Of a stretch of 64,000 nucleotides of DNA, positions 7,967 to 61,277 are shown piece after piece. Source of the stretch: a phage; the sequence record OZ346228.1, one strand, 5' to 3'. The notes beneath the pieces are model-generated. The model made no database searches and had not been told where the DNA came from. It saw only the letters and a program-made list of their open reading frames with translations. Both the position numbers and the translations under genes were made by a program. Position 1 is the stretch's first letter; each line of letters starts with the position of its first letter.

Positions 7967-8332
7967 ATGGAACAAATGAACGATCAAGCGTCGGTTGCGA
8001 TGAACGAGCAAGAACAACCTCAAGAATTTTTCTTAGGGTTAAGTAAAGATCAAGTGTCTCTTCTGCTAGTGCTTTCTTCTTTCATGGGAAGACTTCAGGA
8101 GCTCACACAACAGCCAGAGGCTGAACAATTATTCCAAGCTTTGCGTGAAGAAGAAAAATATCGTCGTTTGGACTATGCCTTAGGTTGGGTAGCTCAACAA
8201 CGAGATATGCTGATGGCCCTCTCTGGGACCACAAGTTTTGCAATGGGGCTGTTGGCTCAAGTTCAGGACAAATTAATTCAAGCAGGGTTTGCACACACGG
8301 CAAACACTAACGAAGAACAAGGAGACAAATAA
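7967..8332 (+). CDS. hypothetical protein
   Basis: RBS CGGAG; stop overlaps next start. Confidence 0.55.
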   Translation: MEQMNDQASVAMNEQEQPQEFFLGLSKDQVSLLLVLSSFMGRLQELTQQPEAEQLFQALREEEKYRRLDYALGWVAQQRDMLMALSGTTSFAMGLLAQVQDKLIQAGFAHTANTNEEQGDK

Positions 8333-9558
8333 TGAGCGTTATTCAACAATTCGCTAACCCGATGAATCCGCGTGAAACTGTTTTACTGGCTCACGGCATG
8401 ATTAAACGTGTCAGCATCAAGCCTATCAAAGGTGCTGATCCTACAACAGGTATTAAAACCACTGTGTGGCAAGGTAAGAAAATTGAATCCAGCCACACCA
8501 TCTCTTTACTGATTTCTGAACTGGATTCCTCTGATAACCTGCTTCAAGGTGGTGAAGAAGTTTGGATCAGCATGGGTGATAAGCTGCTTAAACCTGGTCA
8601 TCAAGACTCTGTCTCTGTTAAAATTGATGACAAGTGGGAAACCGTAACGCCGGGATGGATCGTAAATATTCCTTTGAAGGCAAACGAGCATAACGGTAAG
8701 ACCTATTACAAAGGCTCACTGGCTAAGATGGTCAAGCTGGGTGCAGGAGAGGCTCCAGCAGCGACTCAGCAGCAAAAACAGCAACAAGGTGCACAATCAC
8801 AAGGCCAGAAGCAGAAACCTCAGCAGAATGCCAATCAGGACGTTTTACGCATCTATGGTGATGTGACTCAGATTGTTGGCAACGTGGTTACTGTTAATGA
8901 CCACAAGATTGGCGAAGGTGCTATGGTTGTAACTGATGAGCAGCTTAAAGACCTGGTGGTAGGTGGTCGTGTTGCAGCCATTGTTGACAAAGACACCGGA
9001 AACATTATCAGTGGTTTCAAGGCCTATCCTCCTAAGGCAGAGAACGGCACTCAAGGCTCTGGTGGCAAGCGTAAATCCTCTTACGACCCTATCGGTGTGG
9101 AAACGGGGCATAGCATCAATGCGTTGCAGATCATCCTGGATCGCGGGTTTAAGGTAGACGACCCACTGGGCGTGGCTAAAACACTGCACGTAGTCACCAT
9201 TGAGCTTAAGAAAGAGTATGCTCAAGCCACCAACCGAGCTGAAGATGAAGTAGGTGCCAGTGTCGGTAATGCGGTGTTGAACGCTTGTCGCCGTATTGAC
9301 AAGAAAACGAAAGTTGATGATTTTGCAGTGGCAATTACTGCAGAAGCAAAAGATGTCTTGACTAATCTAGCTGAGCCGTTGTACGATTGGATCAAGAACG
9401 GTGCTGAGTCCACTGACCATCAAGAACCTCAGGCTGCCAAACAGGAAGCAGCTCCACAGCAAAACACTGTAGACGCTCCTCCTGTAAATGATGCGGAAGA
9501 TGACCCAATGGATCAGAATCCAGCACAGTACGTCTTTGATGATGACATCCCATTTTAA
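8332..9558 (+). CDS. SSB-like replication protein with E. coli SSB C-terminal tip
   Basis: RBS AAGGAG; 408 aa with Q-rich linker; last residues ..YVFDDDIPF match the E. coli SSB tail DFDDDIPF; core fold not recognisable by eye. Confidence 0.6.
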   Translation: MSVIQQFANPMNPRETVLLAHGMIKRVSIKPIKGADPTTGIKTTVWQGKKIESSHTISLLISELDSSDNLLQGGEEVWISMGDKLLKPGHQDSVSVKIDDKWETVTPGWIVNIPLKANEHNGKTYYKGSLAKMVKLGAGEAPAATQQQKQQQGAQSQGQKQKPQQNANQDVLRIYGDVTQIVGNVVTVNDHKIGEGAMVVTDEQLKDLVVGGRVAAIVDKDTGNIISGFKAYPPKAENGTQGSGGKRKSSYDPIGVETGHSINALQIILDRGFKVDDPLGVAKTLHVVTIELKKEYAQATNRAEDEVGASVGNAVLNACRRIDKKTKVDDFAVAITAEAKDVLTNLAEPLYDWIKNGAESTDHQEPQAAKQEAAPQQNTVDAPPVNDAEDDPMDQNPAQYVFDDDIPF

Positions 9559-9620
9559 CATTTAGTTAACATAGCCCTGCCAGAAAGGGTGGGGTATTTT
9601 TGTATAAGGAGATCTAAAAA

Positions 9621-10037
9621 ATGACATTAGAAGATATCATTGTTAAACCTGAGAACTATGACCAATACAACCTGTCAACTCAATCTGTAGACCTTGGATG
9701 CGCCACGGTCAGTGCGTGGCTGGTTAACGGAAAAGAGCTGGATAAATGCTTAGAAGCTCACATGTCTATTAACAAGTTTCTGGATGAAAATACTCACTGG
9801 CTTGAGGGTGCAGGAGTATATGCTTCATGGTTGGAAAGTATGGGATTCGACTACCAATCTGAAGAAGGGTGGTGGAGCTATTTAGCTATCTGCCCAGAGA
9901 CGCTGCAATGCTTCATGAAATATTCTGAAGATTTGGAGTACCGGGCGGTGGTTGATAGTGCTATTGCCCGTTATAGCCGTAAACCTTTTTCCCACGACAT
10001 TAAAACTGTGGAAGAGTTTGTTGAAGTTTTCTGTTGA
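9621..10037 (+). CDS. hypothetical protein
   Basis: RBS AAGGAG. Confidence 0.55.
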   Translation: MTLEDIIVKPENYDQYNLSTQSVDLGCATVSAWLVNGKELDKCLEAHMSINKFLDENTHWLEGAGVYASWLESMGFDYQSEEGWWSYLAICPETLQCFMKYSEDLEYRAVVDSAIARYSRKPFSHDIKTVEEFVEVFC

Positions 10038-10133
10038 CACAGGTGGAAAGGTGTGCAATTATAACTTCATAGAACGGGAGGACGTGATGAACGAAGAAAA
10101 CTGGGATGTATAACTAACAGGAGGCCACTGCCC

Positions 10134-10331
10134 ATGATTTATCGAATCCGTGTAAGAGAAGATGCACCAGGCTGTTACTTTGACTGGCGTGGGTGGTGGT
10201 TTCTCCACCCAATGGATGGACTCACAGATAGAATGCTGGATGCTGCCCTTTATACAGATACCGACATAGAATATAATCTCTATCTGAAGGACGGTATAGA
10301 TAACGGCCTGTTTGAAGCAATTCCTGTGTAA
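10134..10331 (+). CDS. hypothetical protein
   Basis: RBS CAGGAGG. Confidence 0.5.
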   Translation: MIYRIRVREDAPGCYFDWRGWWFLHPMDGLTDRMLDAALYTDTDIEYNLYLKDGIDNGLFEAIPV

Positions 10332-10399
10332 GAGACTGTAATAGCTATGTTTTATGATCTTCCTGTAGCACCACCACCTGTTGAACCCGGAGAACTAAG

Positions 10400-10825
10400 A
10401 TGATCTATGAAATGCCAAAACTGATTCGTGACGATGCCCAAAACGCCCACACCTTTATCATGGGCAAGCGCATGGATATTATTTGTCATAAAGATTTCTG
10501 GGAAGGTAGTTACTTCACAGAATATTTTGGTAAACTGGATAATGGTCTGCTGATCCAGTTCTACACCGATGCGGAAAACAATATCTGCTGGGAGTTCGAA
10601 ACTGAAGATATCCATAAACTTTTCACCTTCCTAGGTATTAAGGTTGAGGCCAAGTTTGAAGAAGGCGAGTGCGACGATTGTGGATTCTACGAGGTAACAG
10701 ATTTCTATCTCCCAAGTGGTGAGAACCTTTACTATGAAAGCCACTTCGGCAACTCAAATATGCCACAAGGTTGGGATGAGTTTTTTGAAATTGCGGAAGA
10801 GGAGCTGACATACCGTGATTATTGA
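10400..10825 (+). CDS. hypothetical protein, coupled to macro-domain gene
   Basis: RBS CCGGAG; stop overlaps GTG start of next ORF. Confidence 0.55.
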   Translation: MIYEMPKLIRDDAQNAHTFIMGKRMDIICHKDFWEGSYFTEYFGKLDNGLLIQFYTDAENNICWEFETEDIHKLFTFLGIKVEAKFEEGECDDCGFYEVTDFYLPSGENLYYESHFGNSNMPQGWDEFFEIAEEELTYRDY

Positions 10826-11273
10826 TACTGTAGCGGGAGATTTAATCTCCCTTTTTAAGAGCGGTGCTGGTCACCTGATCCACGGTTGTAACTGCTTTCA
10901 TACAATGGGTGCAGGCATAGCGAAAGATATTGCCCGTGAGTTCCCTCAAGCACTGGCAGCCGACAAAGAGACTGCCTATGGTAATCTGGACAAGCTGGGT
11001 ATGTTTTCTTGTTGGGAGCATTTTGCCAAGAACAGGGTCGTATATGGAATCAACCTGTATACCCAGTTCTACCCAGGGCCCAATGCTGAATACTTCTCAA
11101 TAATGAAAGGTTTTGAGCGAGTCAACGAGGTATTCAAAGGTGTGTCATTGCCGTTCTACATTCCTAAAATTGGATGCGGTATTGGCGGTCTAAAGTGGGA
11201 ACATGTAGAAGATGTAATTAATCTTGCAACCACAGATATTGATGTGGTTGTAGTAGAGTACAAAAAGTGTTGA
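10815..11273 (+). CDS. macro-domain protein (ADP-ribose binding/hydrolase family)
   Basis: GDLISLF..HLIHGCNCFHTMGAGIAKDI parallels macro motifs GDIT..NAAN..GGGVDGAI; later IPKIGCGIGGL. Confidence 0.6.
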   Translation: MIIDTVAGDLISLFKSGAGHLIHGCNCFHTMGAGIAKDIAREFPQALAADKETAYGNLDKLGMFSCWEHFAKNRVVYGINLYTQFYPGPNAEYFSIMKGFERVNEVFKGVSLPFYIPKIGCGIGGLKWEHVEDVINLATTDIDVVVVEYKKC

Positions 11274-11524
11274 CGACCATCTTCTGAGGTGATATAGTTT
11301 CCACAACAACTAAGAGAGGAGAGCACTGTGGAGACTAAAATCTTAATTCTTGCTGTGGTAGATACAACCGAAGGAGCTATATTCGAATCTGCAGGGGGGT
11401 ATTTCTACCTACCATACGGAAAAAGAACTTCCGAGCCAAGTAAAGATTCAATCCTCAAGGTGTTCCCGTGTGCTTTCTGGCTGGAGATTTTGGTATAAGA
11501 TTGCAGAGGATTTGGGAGAGAATT

Positions 11525-11719
11525 ATGAGAAACAAGAAAGAGCTTTACTCTGGTGAGTGGATCAACGATCAACAGGTGGGAGAGGTAACCTGCTTCCGAT
11601 GTTTTACCAGGTACAATCTTAAAACTGCACCAAAAAGTGTTCCAAAGACTGACGGTTATTACATAAAAGAACCTCATTGCCCAAAATGTAAATGCCGATT
11701 ATACTGGAGTAACCTGTAA
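11525..11719 (+). CDS. small zinc-ribbon protein
   Basis: RBS GGAGAG; CFRC..(x24)..CPKCKC. Confidence 0.5.
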   Translation: MRNKKELYSGEWINDQQVGEVTCFRCFTRYNLKTAPKSVPKTDGYYIKEPHCPKCKCRLYWSNL

Positions 11720-11782
11720 AAGATTGACATCTGAAAACTGCAGTGTATAATATATGCATAAACTAACAGAGAGTGATGTATT

Positions 11783-11974
11783 ATGGTAATTTTTAACCGG
11801 GATGGTATCATAGTTAGACAGCACCCGTTCCTTGAATACTATCAAATTGAGCAATGGTGCTACGGGGATTGCAGTCACTCCTATGGGCAAAGTTGGGGAT
11901 ATCGTACAGTTTTTGAATCCACAGACCTTGACAAAGTAAAACAGAAAGTTTTAGAACTTCTTAACAACAAGTGA
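11783..11974 (+). CDS. hypothetical protein
   Basis: ORF with weak RBS. Confidence 0.4.
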   Translation: MVIFNRDGIIVRQHPFLEYYQIEQWCYGDCSHSYGQSWGYRTVFESTDLDKVKQKVLELLNNK

Positions 11975-11984
11975 GTATCGTGCC

Positions 11985-12317
11985 ATGGTAACATTGGAAA
12001 GACGTAAAGCTATTGCCGCCACACTGGCAGACATCTTTTGGGATTGTAATTTAAAATCTACCCGAAATTGTGGTGCATCTGTAGATGTATTATTCCCACG
12101 GCCTACTATTGTTGCAATGGGCAACCTGCTCGATGTGGTATATGGAGCATGGGACAAGGAAGGTGGATTCTATATCTGGCAACCTGACTACGGGACTTGG
12201 AAAGAGGTTAGTGGTTCTTCGGACTTCACTCCTGCAGTGGCTAAAATGGATGGCTGGAAAATCTATGTCGGTAACGACATGGAACTGAAAGGCGAAATTG
12301 TTTACTGGTTACCTTAA
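11985..12317 (+). CDS. hypothetical protein
   Basis: Co-oriented ORF, weak RBS. Confidence 0.45.
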   Translation: MVTLERRKAIAATLADIFWDCNLKSTRNCGASVDVLFPRPTIVAMGNLLDVVYGAWDKEGGFYIWQPDYGTWKEVSGSSDFTPAVAKMDGWKIYVGNDMELKGEIVYWLP

Positions 12318-12338
12318 GAAAGTCCAGGAGATAAAGTT

Positions 12339-12584
12339 ATGAACAAAGGGTGGACATTTGTAGACGGCGTTAAAAACATGCCTCTAGGAAAGTATATTGT
12401 AGCCATGGCAGATGAGAATGGCAAGGTTGATTTCGGAGTTTGCGAGGTTGTTCTTGCAGGATCTGGTGACTATGCTCACAAAACTGGGATAATTAACGGT
12501 CATTTCTACTTTGATTACAACCCTGTTGTGGCGTATATGGCTATGCCAGAGTTCGAGCTCCCAAAGGAAGGTGCAGATGTTTAA
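12339..12584 (+). CDS. hypothetical protein
   Basis: RBS CAGGAG. Confidence 0.5.
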   Translation: MNKGWTFVDGVKNMPLGKYIVAMADENGKVDFGVCEVVLAGSGDYAHKTGIINGHFYFDYNPVVAYMAMPEFELPKEGADV

Positions 12585-57986: not shown

Positions 57987-58700
57987 TTAAATATACTCTG
58001 TTACATCCTTGAAGCTCGAAGGCTTCATAATCTTACCTTTACTGTCAAGGAATATAATAACTTTATTACCGTTGTAGAACTCCTCTTTAGCAACGAAACC
58101 TTCGTAGCGACCACCAAAACGACGCTCAAGATCTTCAATCTCTAACTCTATGAGCAATTCAGTAGACATATCTGCACTGGCACCGTGAGAATATCGTAGA
58201 TGGTTGATCCGTGCAAACTTGCTGTCATTAGATTTGAGAACCTTCCGCATCATCCCACACACATCGCCGCGAAGCTGGAACAGCAAAGCTGTTGACAACT
58301 CCGCTAAGCGGTAAGCTGACGCTCTTTGCTTGGATGTGTTTTTCGCAGCGATCAGTGTATCATAGAACTCACCGATCTTGAACTTAAGACCTCGTGGATT
58401 ATCAAACAGGTTTGACCACTTTTCGTGATTATCATTAACAAGATAAGCGGCATAACTTGTGACAACGTGAAGATCGCAGGCCTCTTTTAGCAGGTGATCT
58501 CCACCATCACCTTTCTCCAGCTCTTCCAAAACCTCATTGAACTCTTCCTCAATGAAGCTAAGCTGTAATTCGAATGGTGTGTATGATTTTTTCACTTTAG
58601 CTGCCACACGGTTCCAGTTTTCCACCCAGTTGGCAGACCAAAGGTAGTTTTCAGGCTGAGACAGTTTTTCCAGGTTGTCGATCAGTTTAGTATTCAGCAT
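57987..58700 (-). CDS. hypothetical protein (possible MazG-like segment)
   Basis: IEEEFNEVLEELEKG..EACDLHVV weakly MazG-like. Confidence 0.5.
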   Translation of the reverse strand: MLNTKLIDNLEKLSQPENYLWSANWVENWNRVAAKVKKSYTPFELQLSFIEEEFNEVLEELEKGDGGDHLLKEACDLHVVTSYAAYLVNDNHEKWSNLFDNPRGLKFKIGEFYDTLIAAKNTSKQRASAYRLAELSTALLFQLRGDVCGMMRKVLKSNDSKFARINHLRYSHGASADMSTELLIELEIEDLERRFGGRYEGFVAKEEFYNGNKVIIFLDSKGKIMKPSSFKDVTEYI

Positions 58701-58713
58701 TAAAGGTCTCCTT

Positions 58714-59475
58714 TTAAAGTTCCATAAAGTTTTCTACAGTTTCAATAAATGCTTTATCAGAGAAAGCGTCAACAGCACCGTTAAACCATACAGGGATCCC
58801 GCGATCCTCATATTGATAAAGGTCGCTACGTGAAATGCCACTCCCATCTGCACTCTGCGAGTCATACTTGTTTACAATCAGCAGTTTTGTGCCTTTACAA
58901 GTAGCAGGAAACAATTCCCAGTTAAAATTAATAACTGTGTTAGAACAACCTACTAGGATCACCATATCATTGCTTGTGAGAGATGTCAACAGGTCATACA
59001 TGTCTGTATACTTAGGAGCAACCTCACCGAAGAACACTACATTGGGCTTAACCCAGGTATACTTGCCTGTATCTACCTCCGTGTATCCGATATTTTTAAT
59101 TACATCATTACCTTCAGCATCTTCGTAGGTGATTTCAGGCAAATACCCGTGGACATGTAAAATATCTTCATGTTTTACACCAGCACGCTCCAGCAAATCA
59201 TCTACATTGGTGGTAAGGTTGATCACACGACCAGACCAGCGGGAATACCACTCAGCGATCCGAAGATGTGCAAGGTTAGGATCAACACTGCCCAGAGCTA
59301 CACGACGTGCATTGTAAAAGTCATGCACCTTATAGTAGTTCTTGGCAAAGGTGTGGATGTTGCACACCTCATCGATGCTGAAATTCTCCCACATTGCAGT
59401 GCTACCAGATCGGAAAGTGGGAATACCAGATTCAGCGCTCAAACCAGCACCGGAGATAATAATCAGTCGTCGCAT
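58714..59475 (-). CDS. Sir2-family NAD-dependent protein (no zinc ribbon)
   Basis: ISGAGLSAESGIPTFRS, LTTNVDDLLERAG..HVHG, VVFFGE; no CxxC..CxxC pairs in small-domain region. Confidence 0.75.
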   Translation of the reverse strand: MRRLIIISGAGLSAESGIPTFRSGSTAMWENFSIDEVCNIHTFAKNYYKVHDFYNARRVALGSVDPNLAHLRIAEWYSRWSGRVINLTTNVDDLLERAGVKHEDILHVHGYLPEITYEDAEGNDVIKNIGYTEVDTGKYTWVKPNVVFFGEVAPKYTDMYDLLTSLTSNDMVILVGCSNTVINFNWELFPATCKGTKLLIVNKYDSQSADGSGISRSDLYQYEDRGIPVWFNGAVDAFSDKAFIETVENFMEL

Positions 59476-59483
59476 AAGTGTCC

Positions 59484-59834
59484 TCAGTAGATGTTTTGTT
59501 TAATCTCTATTCCAAACTTCTTGAATGAGTCAGCAGCAAGCATAAATTTACGAGCTGCCGATGGATTAGAAGTATGCACGAAAATAATCACGTTGTCAAT
59601 AAGTGGTGGCTTTCCGAATACAAGTTTCTCCTCTAGCGCAGAGAAGCAGTCGTACCCTTCAAGCACTTCACCTAGATCATTGTCAAAATACCACTCAGAT
59701 ACGCGTCTGTAGAGCTTTCTCTTATCATTAAGAAAATCCATAAACTCAGAAGAATTCTTTAGCCACAGAGCGTCTGGGAGTCCATAATCTGACGGATCTC
59801 TAAAATCATCAAGCCACACAATCCACTTCTTCAT
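59484..59834 (-). CDS. hypothetical protein
   Basis: 4-nt overlap with RNA ligase gene. Confidence 0.5.
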   Translation of the reverse strand: MKKWIVWLDDFRDPSDYGLPDALWLKNSSEFMDFLNDKRKLYRRVSEWYFDNDLGEVLEGYDCFSALEEKLVFGKPPLIDNVIIFVHTSNPSAARKFMLAADSFKKFGIEIKQNIY

Positions 59835-60766
59835 TGCATATAGTCCTCGTTGTGGAAATAGTAGTCCAGTATCTCACGACGCTCCTGCTCTAATAAGCAA
59901 TTCCACACATCTTCTGTATAGTTGCTACGAATAAATTTTACCATACCGTAAAACTCTTCGTCAACACGTTTAAAGATATCATCATCCCAAATCTTCCAAG
60001 CTTTACCCCTCATTACTGCCTTCCGTGCCAGATAGTATGGAGACTTGATCTTCAGCTGCAGATCATAAGGGTAGTAAGGCTTACGAATCATATACCCTTC
60101 ACCTCTTGTTTCTGCAGCTAATTCTTTTGCATAGCTGAACGGAATTTCACGCACAGTGTTAGGACGTTTTGCACCAAGGTATTTGGCAATCCCATCTAAA
60201 GCTGCTTCTGGTAGCATTATTCCAGAATCATTATATCTGCAACCTATCAAATATGCGCCATGGTCTTCTTGAACAATATGCGGATCTGAAGGGTGACAAA
60301 TTTCAAACATGAATGTCATGTTTTCATTGCCCATAACCTTCTTGATAAGATCTAAATTACCACATTGCTCTTGGATGGTTTCCTTTGCAAGGTTACAATA
60401 TGGAGAATCAAGAGACCCGGTTGTTGAGAACAATAGGTCACCTTTATGAGATGATACCACACCAAGGAATCCGTTCTTTTTCTCTACCGCAGTCACAAGC
60501 TTATTGTCAGGCAGGTTGGTGGAGTTTTCTCCCAAGTTAAACACTTTTGTGAAGGGCCATGCCACAACATTTCCTTCATTACCTACAACAATGCCTCGGC
60601 ACTCCAGTAAACGAGGGGACAAATGCCATAAATTGTTGTAAAATACTTTTCTAGCATATTTATAGATCTTTAACCCGAGATCTGGGTAATACCTACTGGT
60701 TACAAGACCTTTGTCAACTAGGTCGTCTGCATTAAAATACTTCATTATATGTTCCTCATTTGTCAT
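59831..60766 (-). CDS. RNA ligase, T4 Rnl1-like
   Basis: LECRGIVV, KVFNLGEN, motif I EKKNGFLGV, GDLLFSTTGSL parallel T4 RnlA LECRGIMF, KFFNLNEN, TKEDGSL, GDEILFKSKGSI (from memory); start may be ATG at 60745. Confidence 0.75.
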   Translation of the reverse strand: MTNEEHIMKYFNADDLVDKGLVTSRYYPDLGLKIYKYARKVFYNNLWHLSPRLLECRGIVVGNEGNVVAWPFTKVFNLGENSTNLPDNKLVTAVEKKNGFLGVVSSHKGDLLFSTTGSLDSPYCNLAKETIQEQCGNLDLIKKVMGNENMTFMFEICHPSDPHIVQEDHGAYLIGCRYNDSGIMLPEAALDGIAKYLGAKRPNTVREIPFSYAKELAAETRGEGYMIRKPYYPYDLQLKIKSPYYLARKAVMRGKAWKIWDDDIFKRVDEEFYGMVKFIRSNYTEDVWNCLLEQERREILDYYFHNEDYMQ

Positions 60767-60809
60767 TTTGTCAGTCTATCCTGCCACACAAATAACCTAG
60801 TGTCAACAC

Positions 60810-60838
60810 TTGAAATTAACAAAACAGTTAGGTATACT
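60810..60838 (+). promoter_or_regulatory. sigma70-like promoter in divergent region
   Basis: TTGAAA, 17-nt spacer, TATACT. Confidence 0.45.
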
Positions 60839-60866
60839 ACCGTTGAAATTAAAACGGAGGGTCGCT

Positions 60867-61277
60867 ATGTCTAAAATGCTATATATCGTGCGTGGTCTAC
60901 CAGGGTCTGGCAAATCAACACTGGCAAATGAGCTATCTTTAGAGGGTCTGTATCCACATTTTGAGAACGACATGTTCTGGTATGACGATGACGGCAATTA
61001 CAACTGGGATGCAAGTAAAGTAACACTCGCAGCAAAATGGTGCAAAGATAACGTAGAAGATATGATGCGTATGGGATACGACCGTATCGTGGTAAGTAAT
61101 ACGTTTACAAAAGAAAAACATGTGCAGGAATATGTTGACATGGCAATCACTCACGGGTATAGTTATACCGTGATCGTGGTTGAAAACCGCCACGGTAATA
61201 AAAGCATTCATGATGTTCCAGACAAGGTTGTGGATCGTATGGAACGCCAGCTTAAAAACTGCATTAAACTTAAATGA
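60867..61277 (+). CDS. P-loop polynucleotide kinase-like protein
   Basis: RBS ACGGAGG; Walker A VRGLPGSGKSTLA; divergent from RNA ligase. Confidence 0.6.
   Translation: MSKMLYIVRGLPGSGKSTLANELSLEGLYPHFENDMFWYDDDGNYNWDASKVTLAAKWCKDNVEDMMRMGYDRIVVSNTFTKEKHVQEYVDMAITHGYSYTVIVVENRHGNKSIHDVPDKVVDRMERQLKNCIKLK

What the first reader, a model, noticed from the sequence alone, without database searches (positions are those of the whole stretch)
10400..11273. Macro-domain protein in a two-gene coupled unit
ORF 10815-11273 carries macro-domain-like motifs (GDL..HGCNC..MGAGIAKDI..IGCGIGG) and is translationally coupled to an unknown 141-aa gene. Phage macro domains can reverse ADP-ribosylation, so this pair is a candidate counter-defence unit. 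A Sir2-family gene sits elsewhere in the window (58714-59475).
Basis: partly seen in the sequence, partly recalled or inferred. Interest (0 to 1): 0.6.

Follow-up and report, generated by a model that had tools for sequence, protein, structure and literature searches.

The report
Phage macrodomain: T4 Tk.4/AdfM homologue
This gene in an rV5-like E. coli phage encodes a small macrodomain enzyme related to T4 Tk.4 (AdfM), a protein recently shown to let T4 escape the DarTG2 DNA-ADP-ribosylating defence; it is an ordinary new member of a known family, and its upstream neighbour is not a conserved partner.

Summary
ORFs 10400-10825 (141 aa) and 10815-11273 (152 aa, GTG start with its own GAGGAG Shine-Dalgarno) overlap by 11 nt, and all the quoted motifs are present.

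- **Source:** the window is a Vequintavirus (rV5-like phage), 99.8% identical to phage JLBYU08. GenBank already annotates this gene as macro domain, phosphatase or Poa1p-like.
- **Fold:** the 152-aa protein passes the Pfam Macro threshold and models with pLDDT 94.7. It matches the TARG1/DarG/Poa1p/SCO6735 class. Its only PADLOC and NCBIfam hit is the N-terminal macrodomain of DarG.
- **Closest relatives:** it is 39% identical over its full length to T4 Tk.4 (E=1e-43) and 69% identical to Krischvirus Tk.4. A 2025 preprint named T4 Tk.4 AdfM and showed T4 needs it to resist DarTG2.
- **Active site:** the family has an invariant Gln where DarG and TARG1 have the catalytic Lys. SCO6735, which removes thymidine-linked ADP-ribose from DNA, has the same Gln.
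- **Likely function:** an orphan DarG-like DNA de-ADP-ribosylase.
- **The pair:** the two-gene unit is not supported. The 141-aa acidic orphan protein sits beside dam, not beside a macro gene, in every other lineage examined.
- **Sir2:** the distant Sir2 gene belongs to a separate, previously predicted RNA-repair cluster.

Verdict: new member of a known kind, modest interest.

The parts
10815..11273 (+). Macro-domain gene (152 aa, GTG start), homologue of T4 tk.4/adfM
   Evidence: Pfam Macro above threshold. AF2 pLDDT 94.7. Foldseek top hits are TARG1, Poa1p, DarG and SCO6735. 39% identical to T4 Tk.4 at E=1e-43 and 69% to Krischvirus Tk.4. The only PADLOC and NCBIfam hit is DarG.
10890..10892 (+). 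Codon for Asn26 in HGCNC, the conserved macrodomain Asn that contacts the distal ribose (equivalent to DarG N22, PhiKZ AdfM N23, SCO6735 N27)
   Evidence: Invariant in 66/66 homologues. Aligned to SCO6735 N27 and the DarG Asn. N23A abolishes PhiKZ AdfM activity (PMC13309987).
11064..11066 (+). Codon for Gln84 in NLYTQ, at the position of the catalytic Lys of DarG (K80) and TARG1 (K84) and equal to SCO6735 Gln85
   Evidence: Alignments to DarG, TARG1 and SCO6735. Invariant in 66/66. T4 Tk.4 also has NLYTQ. SCO6735 Q85A and Q85E are inactive (PMC9411070).
10905..10922 (+). MGAGIA glycine-rich loop (residues 31-36), first phosphate/ADP-ribose-binding loop
   Evidence: M31, G34 and A36 are invariant. 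Aligned to the MGAGIA/MGKGIA loops of TARG1 and DarG.
11169..11189 (+). IGCGIGG loop (residues 119-125), second diphosphate-binding loop. TARG1 Asp125 is replaced here by Gly124.
   Evidence: G120 and G122 are invariant. Aligned to TARG1 IGCGLDR and SCO6735 IGCGLAGG.
10799..10804 (+). Shine-Dalgarno GAGGAG for the macro gene, inside the 3' end of the upstream ORF
   Evidence: Read directly from the sequence. Annotated as a ribosome_binding_site at the same place in phage Murica.
10400..10825 (+). Upstream 141-aa orphan gene (very acidic, pI 4.2, net charge -21). A physical neighbour that overlaps the macro gene by 11 nt; not shown to be a functional partner.
10249..10277 (+). Nearest intact sigma-70-like promoter match upstream of the pair (TTTATA-17-TATAAT, 10/12)
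   Evidence: Consensus scan only; function not shown.
11270..11298 (+). Sigma-70-like promoter match (TTGACG-17-TATAGT with TG) starting at the macro stop codon, probably serving the next gene at 11328
   Evidence: Consensus scan only.

Best explanation
ORF 10815-11273 encodes a stand-alone, catalytically competent macrodomain of the ALC1-like/TARG1/DarG class. It is the Vequintavirus counterpart of T4 Tk.4 (AdfM). The most likely job is that of an orphan antitoxin. When a host DarTG2-type system releases its DarT2 toxin and ADP-ribosylates thymidines in single-stranded phage DNA, the enzyme binds the ADP-ribose through Asn26 and the two glycine loops and hydrolyses the thymidine-ADP-ribose bond, so replication can continue. 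Catalysis would follow the SCO6735 route, in which an essential Gln (here Gln84) positions the substrate and a water network. It would not follow the Lys-dependent route of DarG and TARG1. The protein lacks DarG's C-terminal DarT-binding domain, so it would act on the modification and not on the toxin. Shown here: the gene, the fold, the class, the homology to T4 Tk.4 and the conservation of the active-site residues. Inferred: the substrate and the counter-defence role in this phage.
For: Homology: 39% identity over the whole length to T4 Tk.4 (E=1e-43), with the HGCNCFHTMG, ADK, NLYTQ.PGPN.EY and IG.GIG blocks shared. It is 69% identical to the gene at the tk.4 position (between vs and tk) of Krischvirus JK32 and Phi1. 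T4 tk.4 was the single significant hit for DarTG2 in a transposon screen, and a clean knockout sensitised T4 to DarTG2 (preprint 10.1101/2025.11.20.689424). Fold: the AF2 model has pLDDT 94.7 and pTM 0.90, and Foldseek gives TARG1, Poa1p, Taq and Mtb DarG, BT1257 and SCO6735 at E 1e-10 to 1e-7. A family-profile search of PDB puts SCO6735 first (2.2e-14), followed by TARG1, BT1257, DarG and Poa1p. The only PADLOC and NCBIfam hits are DarG, covering model positions 4-144 of 338. Active site: N26, Q84, G120 and G122 are invariant in 66/66 homologues and H23 is present in 65/66. Q84 aligns with SCO6735 Gln85. SCO6735 removes DarT-made thymidine-ADP-ribose from DNA and rescues cells from DarT, and its Q85A and Q85E mutants are inactive (PMC9411070). 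A second phage macrodomain, PhiKZ AdfM, has been shown biochemically to remove T-ADPr from DNA and to protect against DarTG2 (PMC13309987). Selection: dN/dS is 0.10 across a deeply diverged allele pair (dS about 1) with all catalytic residues kept.
Against: There is no experiment on any Vequintavirus protein. The Bas54 (Vequintavirinae) transposon work does not report a DarTG2 challenge in the passages read. The T4 evidence is genetic only and comes from a preprint. At 39% identity the substrate could differ. Two features reported as important for SCO6735's DNA activity are missing in this allele: Lys34 is Ala33 here, and the long mobile loop carrying Lys89 is absent. The magaca allele does have Lys33. 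Enzymes of this class are promiscuous: TARG1 and SCO6735 also act on proteins, and Poa1p is a phosphatase. His23 and Thr30 match the Poa1p residues H23 and S30 that were chosen for mutagenesis. A comparative survey argued that phage macrodomains mostly target small ADP-ribose derivatives (PMC9503650).
Confidence: 0.65

Rival explanations
1. The macrodomain is a Poa1p-like ADP-ribose-1''-phosphate phosphatase, or another small-molecule ADP-ribose-derivative hydrolase. It would clean up the by-product of the phage's own NAD-dependent RNA repair: the Sir2 protein at 58714-59475 would remove RNA 2'-phosphates as KptA does, giving ADP-ribose 1'',2''-cyclic phosphate; the adjacent cREC protein would open it to Appr1p; and the macrodomain would dephosphorylate that.
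For: The window carries the Sir2 / cREC / T4-type RNA ligase / AAA_33 kinase cluster. Iyer et al. 2022 describe this cluster, with phage V5 as prototype, as a predicted sirtuin-based RNA-repair system that has no adjacent macro gene (PMC9503650). Poa1p is among the best sequence and fold matches. His23 and Thr30 align with Poa1p H23 and S30. The historical GenBank names are 'phosphatase' and 'Poa1p-like'.
Against: The macro gene lies about 47 kb from that cluster, on the other strand. Tk.4 homologues occur in 2831 phage records, including T4. The T4 stretch inspected has no Sir2 annotation, and that T4 lacks Sir2 altogether is my own knowledge. In T4 the demonstrated phenotype is DarTG2 resistance. 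The Sir2-as-KptA step is itself only a prediction. Poa1p has Ser where the family's invariant Gln84 sits (Poa1p sequence recalled from memory, not checked against a tool output). The only defence-library and NCBIfam match is DarG.
Confidence: 0.13
2. The enzyme mainly reverses ADP-ribosylation of proteins or RNA rather than DNA. Possible targets are host toxin ADP-ribosyltransferases that act on mRNA, tRNA or the translation machinery, or modifications written by a phage enzyme.
For: TARG1 and SCO6735, its class relatives, also hydrolyse protein-linked ADP-ribose. RNA ADP-ribosylation reversed by macrodomains has been described (titles PMC11833690 and PMC13036486). The protein has a net negative charge (pI 5.9).
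Against: T4 AdfM has the same pI (5.9) and still counters DarTG2. No ADP-ribosyltransferase gene is annotated in the relatives' records for the parts of the window I inspected, although I did not scan every ORF. DarG-type enzymes are specific for DNA (PMC13309987).
Confidence: 0.1
3. The two overlapping genes form a functional pair. The very acidic 141-aa protein supplies what the orphan macrodomain lacks compared with DarG, namely direct binding and inhibition of DarT (as the DarG C-terminal domain and ICP1 AdfB do), or it otherwise works together with the macrodomain.
For: There is an 11-nt overlap and the genes are probably co-transcribed. The protein has net charge -21 and pI 4.2, which resembles DNA-mimic inhibitors. 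AdfB is a small DarT-binding antitoxin mimic (PMC11481870). Among sequenced phages the 141-aa family is found only in Vequintavirus and Krischvirus, the two groups whose macro proteins are each other's closest relatives. The recombination tract seen in phage magaca covers the 3' half of the 141-aa gene together with the macro gene.
Against: Adjacency is not conserved. The Phi1 homologue lies directly upstream of dam, 9 kb from tk.4. Homologues in four other contig types lie upstream of dam or of a QueC-like gene plus dam, or among unknown genes, and tblastn finds no macro gene in those loci. The macro family is present in 2831 phage records and the 141-aa family in 177. The 141-aa protein has no match to DarG models and no structural match to anything. 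Overlapping junctions are common in this gene cluster.
Confidence: 0.07
4. The macrodomain deacetylates O-acetyl-ADP-ribose produced by the phage Sir2 deacylase.
For: TARG1/OARD1 has this activity (molecule name). The Sir2 protein is CobB-like. Some database sources name homologues 'O-acetyl-ADP-ribose deacetylase'.
Against: The two genes are not linked (about 47 kb apart, opposite strands). The family is widespread, including in T4, whose inspected tk.4 region has no Sir2. The Sir2 scores far below all NCBIfam equivalog cutoffs, and its gene context is RNA repair.
Confidence: 0.04

Closest known systems
T4 Tk.4 = AdfM (anti-DarT factor Macrodomain), preprint 10.1101/2025.11.20.689424
   Same: Same size (152 vs 155 aa) and a single macrodomain. 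39% identity end to end (E=1e-43). Same signature blocks, including NLYTQ with Gln at the catalytic-Lys position. Same pI. The start codon overlaps the upstream gene in both.
   Different: Different phage family (Vequintavirinae vs Straboviridae) and a different locus: downstream of the SSB-like gene and small ORFs here, between vs and tk.3 in T4. The phenotype has been shown only for T4.
Krischvirus Tk.4 (phages Phi1 and JK32)
   Same: Closest relative outside the genus: 69% identity with no gaps.
   Different: It sits at the canonical tk.4 position between vs and tk. The 141-aa homologue in the same genome is 9 kb away, next to dam.
Streptomyces coelicolor SCO6735 (PDB 5E3B; PMC9411070)
   Same: Best PDB hit for the family profile (2.2e-14). 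A stand-alone ALC1-like macrodomain with Gln at the catalytic-Lys position, plus the His and Asn of the first strand and loop. It lacks the TARG1 Lys/Asp dyad. It hydrolyses DarT-made thymidine-ADP-ribose on DNA and neutralises DarT.
   Different: About 20% identity. SCO6735 has a long mobile loop with Lys89, and Lys34, both of which are absent in the window protein (Ala33). It is a bacterial chromosomal gene, not a phage gene.
DarG antitoxin of DarTG2 (PDB 5M31, 5M3I, 7OMU)
   Same: Same macrodomain class. It is the only hit in PADLOC (1.4e-13) and NCBIfam (1.7e-12). TM-score about 0.74.
   Different: DarG uses a catalytic Lys80 where this protein has Gln. DarG has a C-terminal DarT-binding domain (model length 338), which is absent here. 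DarG is encoded next to darT, and there is none here.
PhiKZ gp104 = AdfM of chimalliviruses (PMC13309987)
   Same: A phage-encoded stand-alone macrodomain that counters DarTG2. Removal of T-ADPr from DNA has been shown biochemically.
   Different: It is of the Lys type (N23, K78) like DarG, and is imported into the phage nucleus. It is a different lineage from the Gln-type Tk.4 family. I made no direct sequence comparison.
Yeast Poa1p (PDB 6LFQ-6LFU) and human TARG1/OARD1 (PDB 4J5R)
   Same: Top fold matches. His23 and the Ser/Thr30 position are shared with Poa1p, and the glycine loops are shared with both.
   Different: Poa1p is an Appr1p phosphatase. TARG1 uses a Lys84/Asp125 dyad, and both positions are replaced here (Gln84, Gly124).

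Membership tests
Macro domain superfamily (Pfam PF01661) | Profile match above the curated threshold | tested here: met
   25.9 bits against a gathering score of 22, E=1e-5. No other Pfam family, including Macro_2, matched at E<=1.
Macro domain superfamily (Pfam PF01661) | Macro alpha/beta/alpha fold | tested here: met
   AF2 pLDDT 94.7 and pTM 0.90. 191 PDB matches at E<=0.001; nearly all of the 50 listed are macrodomains, with TARG1, Poa1p and DarG at the top.
Phage Tk.4 / AdfM (T4 type) | Full-length sequence homology to T4 Tk.4 | tested here: met
   39% identity over 150 of 152 residues, E=1e-43. Same PHROG (phrog_335 'phosphatase', 1.4e-59). rV5's own GenBank record names it 'Tk.4 conserved hypothetical protein' (H102).
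Phage Tk.4 / AdfM (T4 type) | Family signature residues (H23, N26, D50, N80-x-Y-T-Q84, P117, G120, G122) | tested here: met
   All are present in the window protein and are invariant or nearly so in 66 homologues. All except the Pro are visible in the T4 Tk.4 alignment.
Phage Tk.4 / AdfM (T4 type) | Protects the phage against DarTG2 | not testable with these tools
   Shown for T4 only. No Vequintavirus data were found in the passages searched.
Phage Tk.4 / AdfM (T4 type) | Hydrolyses thymidine-linked ADP-ribose on ssDNA | not testable with these tools
   Shown for SCO6735 and PhiKZ AdfM. Not shown for any Gln-type phage protein.
DarG antitoxin (NCBIfam NF048014, PADLOC DarG) | N-terminal macrodomain similar to DarG | tested here: met
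   PADLOC 1.4e-13 and NCBIfam 1.7e-12, covering model positions 4-144.
DarG antitoxin (NCBIfam NF048014, PADLOC DarG) | Catalytic lysine (Taq/Mtb DarG K80) | tested here: not met
   DarG NFPTKKHW aligns with NLYTQFYP. Gln84 is invariant in the family.
DarG antitoxin (NCBIfam NF048014, PADLOC DarG) | C-terminal DarT-binding domain and full-length equivalog score | tested here: not met
   The protein is 152 aa and scores 47.3 bits against a cutoff of 250. The match ends at model position 144 of 338.
DarG antitoxin (NCBIfam NF048014, PADLOC DarG) | Encoded next to a darT toxin gene | tested here: not met
   The overlapping upstream gene has no PADLOC, NCBIfam or Pfam hit. The downstream ORF 11328-11498 was not scanned; it is annotated as a hypothetical protein in four relatives.
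TARG1/OARD1-type glycohydrolase | Lys84/Asp125 catalytic dyad | tested here: not met
   In the profile alignment to 4J5R, K84 corresponds to Gln84 and D125 to Gly124.
SCO6735-type (Gln) ALC1-like macrodomain | Gln at the catalytic-Lys position together with the His/Asn of the first strand and loop | tested here: met
   The alignment puts SCO6735 H24, N27 and Q85 against H23, N26 and Q84. Residue roles are from PMC9411070.
SCO6735-type (Gln) ALC1-like macrodomain | Extended mobile loop with Lys89, and Lys34, for DNA binding | tested here: not met
   The loop appears as an insertion in SCO6735 relative to the phage family, and Lys34 aligns with Ala33. A33 occurs in 58/66 homologues.
Poa1p-type Appr1p phosphatase | Fold similarity and the His23 / Ser30 positions | tested here: inconclusive
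   Foldseek E=8e-10. 'LIHSCNCNGSWGGGIA' aligns with 'LIHGCNCFHTMGAGIA'. Phosphatase activity cannot be tested here.
Sirtuin-macrodomain operon (SirTM/Zn-Macro type) | Sir2 and macro genes adjacent in one operon | tested here: not met
   The Sir2 gene is at 58714-59475 on the minus strand, about 47 kb away, and is flanked by cREC, RNA ligase and kinase genes.
Conserved two-gene module (141-aa gene plus macro gene) | Adjacency conserved outside closely related genomes | tested here: not met
   In Phi1 the homologue lies next to dam, 9 kb from tk.4. Metagenomic homologues have no macro gene in the fetched loci.

The most novel reading that the evidence does not exclude
The acidic 141-aa orphan protein (net charge -21) and the orphan macrodomain together form a 'split DarG' in Vequintaviruses. 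The macrodomain would erase thymidine ADP-ribosylation while the neighbour binds and blocks DarT2 (or another DNA-directed defence enzyme) as a DNA mimic. This would make the overlapping pair a two-pronged counter-defence cassette. A weaker variant is that the macrodomain also serves the phage's Sir2-based RNA-repair pathway as its missing Appr1p phosphatase.
Probability: 0.07. Interest if true: 0.6.

Novelty: new member of a known kind. Interest (0 to 1): 0.3.

Why it matters
If the assignment holds, rV5-like phages, which are used in phage-therapy and biocontrol cocktails and are represented in the BASEL collection, carry a ready-made enzyme against DarTG2-type DNA ADP-ribosylation. That would help predict host range on E. 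coli strains carrying DarTG2. The analysis adds one point of mechanistic interest: the whole T4 Tk.4/AdfM family, found in about 2800 of 50,697 phage records, has an invariant Gln where DarG, TARG1 and PhiKZ AdfM use a catalytic Lys. Phages therefore carry two mechanistically different kinds of 'AdfM', and the Gln type matches the SCO6735 mechanism. None of this changes the general picture, because orphan antitoxin-like enzymes in phages are already established for both NADAR and macro domains.

Tried and rejected
- **Conserved partner for the 141-aa gene.** I ran a word-indexed search of 5.8 billion proteins with the sequence and with a profile, a full HMMER scan of 1.84 billion representatives, and tblastn against phage genomes. 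These gave only a tiny family. Context look-ups put its members next to dam, not next to a macro gene. Rejected.
- **The 141-aa protein as a mimic of the DarG C-terminal domain.** It has no hit to the PADLOC or NCBIfam DarG models. Not supported, though not excluded.
- **Hairpin at 10835-10851 as a regulatory or coupling element.** This hairpin is annotated as a terminator in phage Murica. The fold of 10785-10875 is no more stable than shuffled sequence (z=-0.49), and the hairpin does not cover the SD or the start codon. Not pursued further.
- **Diversifying selection on the macro gene.** The sharp divergence island between Vequintavirus genomes is mostly synonymous (dS about 1.0, dN/dS 0.10). 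It reflects an old allele exchange under purifying selection, not positive selection.
- **ICP1 AdfB as a relative.** It is a 77-aa DarT binder, not a macrodomain.
- **Literature search for 'AdfM'.** It returned mostly unrelated matches.
- **Alternative start.** I considered the longer start annotated in phage PMBT16 (10776). In this window that frame hits TGA at 10806-10808, and the N-terminus MIIDTV matches the homologues, so GTG at 10815 stands.
Full report
**What is there.** The window is a Vequintavirus (rV5-like myovirus). Bases 9600-12400 are 99.8% identical to Escherichia phage JLBYU08, and 116 phage records cover at least 80% of that stretch.

Both ORFs of the finding exist as described. 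One runs 10400-10825 (ATG, 141 aa) and the other 10815-11273 (GTG, 152 aa), both on the + strand. The GTG lies 8 nt before the upstream TGA, which gives an 11-nt overlap. A GAGGAG Shine-Dalgarno sits at 10799-10804.

The genes are annotated at the same positions in JLBYU08 ('putative macro domain-containing protein'), Murica ('phosphatase; contains Macro domain'), PMBT16 ('Poa1p-like family protein') and rV5 itself ('Tk.4 conserved hypothetical protein'). The existence of a macro gene here is therefore already recorded in databases.

**The macrodomain.**
- Pfam Macro is passed: 25.9 bits against a gathering score of 22, with no other family matching.
- phrog_335 matches at 1.4e-59.
- An AlphaFold2 model built on 66 homologues is confident (pLDDT 94.7, pTM 0.90).
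- Its best PDB matches are all from the ALC1-like class: TARG1, Poa1p, DarG from Thermus and Mycobacterium, BT1257 and SCO6735.
- A family-profile search of PDB sequences gives the same set, with SCO6735 first at 2.2e-14.
- In the defence-system library and in NCBIfam the only hit is the antitoxin DarG (1.4e-13 and 1.7e-12). The match covers only the N-terminal macrodomain, positions 4-144 of 338, and scores far below the equivalog cutoff.

The protein is thus a stand-alone, DarG-like macrodomain without the DarT-binding domain.

**Relation to T4 Tk.4/AdfM.** tblastn finds homologues in 2831 of 50,697 phage records. Many are T4-like phages where the hit lies beside vs, the valyl-tRNA-synthetase modifier. 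That is the position of T4 tk.4.

Direct comparison gives 39% identity over the whole length with T4 Tk.4 (E=1e-43). It gives 69% identity, without gaps, with the tk.4-position gene of Krischvirus JK32 and Phi1.

A bioRxiv preprint of November 2025 (10.1101/2025.11.20.689424) reports three things. tk.4 was the single significant T4 gene depleted on a DarTG2 host. A clean deletion sensitised T4 to DarTG2. The authors named the gene adfM, for anti-DarT factor Macrodomain.

A Cell Reports paper of 2026 (PMC13309987) independently used the same name for PhiKZ gp104. It showed removal of thymidine-linked ADP-ribose from DNA in vitro and protection against DarTG2 in vivo.

**Active site.** In an alignment of 66 homologues these residues are invariant: G24, N26, C27, M31, G34, A36, D50, N80, Y82, Q84, P117, G120 and G122. 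H23 is present in 65 of 66.

Gln84, in the motif N-L-Y-T-Q, aligns with the catalytic Lys of DarG (NFPTKKHW) and of TARG1 (LITKK). TARG1 Asp125 is a Gly here. T4 Tk.4 has the same NLYTQ, whereas PhiKZ AdfM has Lys78.

SCO6735 also has Gln at this position (Gln85). It lacks the Lys/Asp dyad, efficiently removes DarT-made thymidine-ADP-ribose from DNA, protects cells from DarT, and is inactivated by Q85A or Q85E (PMC9411070).

The Tk.4 family therefore looks like a Gln-type enzyme working by the SCO6735 route. It differs from SCO6735 in lacking the long mobile loop with Lys89 and, in this allele, Lys34 (Ala33 here). Its slightly acidic pI (5.9) is the same as that of T4 AdfM, so this is no argument against a DNA substrate.

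**The upstream gene and the 'unit'.** The 141-aa protein has no Pfam, NCBIfam or PADLOC hit. It is very acidic (pI 4.2, net charge -21). Its family is tiny:
- 4 to 8 clusters among 5.8 billion proteins;
- 18 among 1.84 billion representatives;
- 177 phage records, all Vequintavirus or Krischvirus-like.

Adjacency to the macro gene is confined to the closely related Vequintavirus genomes. In Krischvirus Phi1 the homologue (ORF064) lies directly upstream of dam, 9 kb and about 27 genes from tk.4. More distant homologues in metagenomic T4-like contigs lie directly upstream of a Dam-type methyltransferase, or upstream of a QueC-like gene plus dam with a Mom-like gene before them. One group lies among unknown genes. 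tblastn finds no macro gene in any of these loci.

The macro family is also about 16 times more widespread than the 141-aa family. Overlapping junctions are common in this cluster, at about 10 of 36, and T4 tk.4 likewise overlaps its unrelated upstream gene vs.

I conclude that the pair is a local juxtaposition and not a conserved module. The context of the 141-aa family points, weakly, towards DNA-modification loci.

**Evolution within the genus.** Compared with phage magaca, the flanks are 97-100% identical. Identity falls to 65-88% across the macro gene and to 87-93% in the 3' half of the 141-aa gene.

The divergence is mostly synonymous. For the macro gene dS is 1.03, dN is 0.10 and the ratio is 0.10. 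For the 141-aa gene dS is 0.34 and the ratio is 0.09. Neighbouring ORFs have dS of 0.02-0.08.

This is replacement by an old allele through recombination, with purifying selection and all catalytic residues retained. The magaca allele has MGKGIA, that is a Lys at the SCO6735 Lys34 position.

**The Sir2 gene.** ORF 58714-59475 (minus strand) is a CobB-like Sir2 (Pfam 98 bits; NCBIfam sub-threshold). It sits beside three other genes:
- a cREC 'cyclic-phosphate processing receiver' protein (59484-59834);
- a T4 Rnl1-type RNA ligase (59831-60766);
- an AAA_33 kinase (60864-61277, + strand).

Iyer et al. 2022 (PMC9503650) describe exactly this neighbourhood, with phage V5 as prototype, as a predicted sirtuin-based RNA-repair system. 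They note that it lacks an adjacent macro gene.

This supports a specific rival explanation: the macrodomain as the Appr1p phosphatase for that pathway. I rate that rival low. The genes are about 47 kb apart on opposite strands, Tk.4 homologues are widespread, including in T4, and the T4 phenotype is DarTG2 resistance.

**Verdict.** It is not supported for the two-gene unit or for the Sir2 link.

The most likely mechanism is enzymatic removal of DarT2-made thymidine ADP-ribose from phage DNA by a Gln-type, SCO6735-like macrodomain (confidence about 0.65). The fold and class are essentially certain, while the substrate and role are inferred.

This is a new member of a known kind. Interest is modest at 0.3.

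Noticed in passing
window 57987-61277: A cluster of a 237-aa ORF without any Pfam hit, a CobB-like Sir2 (58714-59475, -), a cREC protein (59484-59834, -), a T4 Rnl1-type RNA ligase (59831-60766, -) and an AAA_33 kinase (60864-61277, +). It matches the phage-V5 sirtuin-centred RNA-repair neighbourhood predicted by Iyer et al. 2022 (PMC9503650). That system is untested experimentally as far as I found.
   Followed up: partly
window 10555-10564 and 11063-11072: A 10-bp direct repeat, CCAGTTCTAC (encoding Q-F-Y in both genes), occurs once in the 141-aa gene and once in the macro gene. None of 100 shuffles had two matches. Protein P0017 (121 aa, from a 135.5-kb assembled contig) is exactly the in-frame fusion expected from a 508-bp deletion between these repeats. 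The deletion removes the N-terminal half of the macrodomain, so a natural macro-deficient variant, or an assembly artefact, exists.
   Followed up: partly
window 10575-11294: There is a sharp divergence island between otherwise 97-100% identical Vequintavirus genomes (window vs phage magaca). Identity is 65-88% over the macro gene, with dS about 1.0 and dN/dS 0.10. This indicates allele replacement by recombination. Across phage records, 73 have the macro protein at only 80-90% identity, while the 141-aa protein is at least 90% identical in all Vequintavirus records.
   Followed up: yes
loci L012-L014, L010-L011, and L005/L007 (Phi1 ORF064): Homologues of the 141-aa protein in T4-like phages sit immediately upstream of a Dam-type methyltransferase, sometimes with a QueC-like PP-loop gene between them and a Mom-like gene before them. 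The conserved motif is EGxCDxCGxYxVxD...LPxG..Y.E.HFGN.N.P..W.EF. This suggests a link to DNA modification or anti-restriction.
   Followed up: partly
window 10835-10851: A terminator-like hairpin, GGGAGATTTAATCTCCC followed by TTTTT, lies 20 nt inside the macro coding sequence, over the GDLISLF codons. It is annotated as a terminator in phage Murica. The local fold is not more stable than shuffled sequence (z=-0.49).
   Followed up: partly
window 11724-11751 and 10034-10062: There is a perfect sigma-70 consensus promoter match (TTGACA-16-TATAAT) at 11724-11751, and several other strong matches in this region. The scan found 19 against 9.9 expected, which is consistent with an early region made of many small transcription units.
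   Followed up: no
search results for window 9600-12400: Sixteen GenBank records named 'Campylobacter phage' (for example C5, C2, A147, A141 and C12) are 96-97% identical to this E. coli rV5-like sequence. They are probably mislabelled or come from contaminating coliphages.
   Followed up: no
window 8332-9558 vs locus L008 7745-9558: Phage PMBT16 carries an extra 'endonuclease VII' gene (579 bp) between the 408-aa SSB-like gene and the 138-aa ORF. The window lacks it, so this is a small mobile-gene indel just upstream of the region studied.
   Followed up: no
literature: The name AdfM has been given independently to two different phage macrodomain lineages: T4 Tk.4 (Gln type) and PhiKZ gp104 (Lys type, N23/K78). 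Some Vequintavirinae (Bas60-62) also carry a NADAR anti-DarTG1 factor (PMC11825919). I did not check whether this window encodes one.
   Followed up: no
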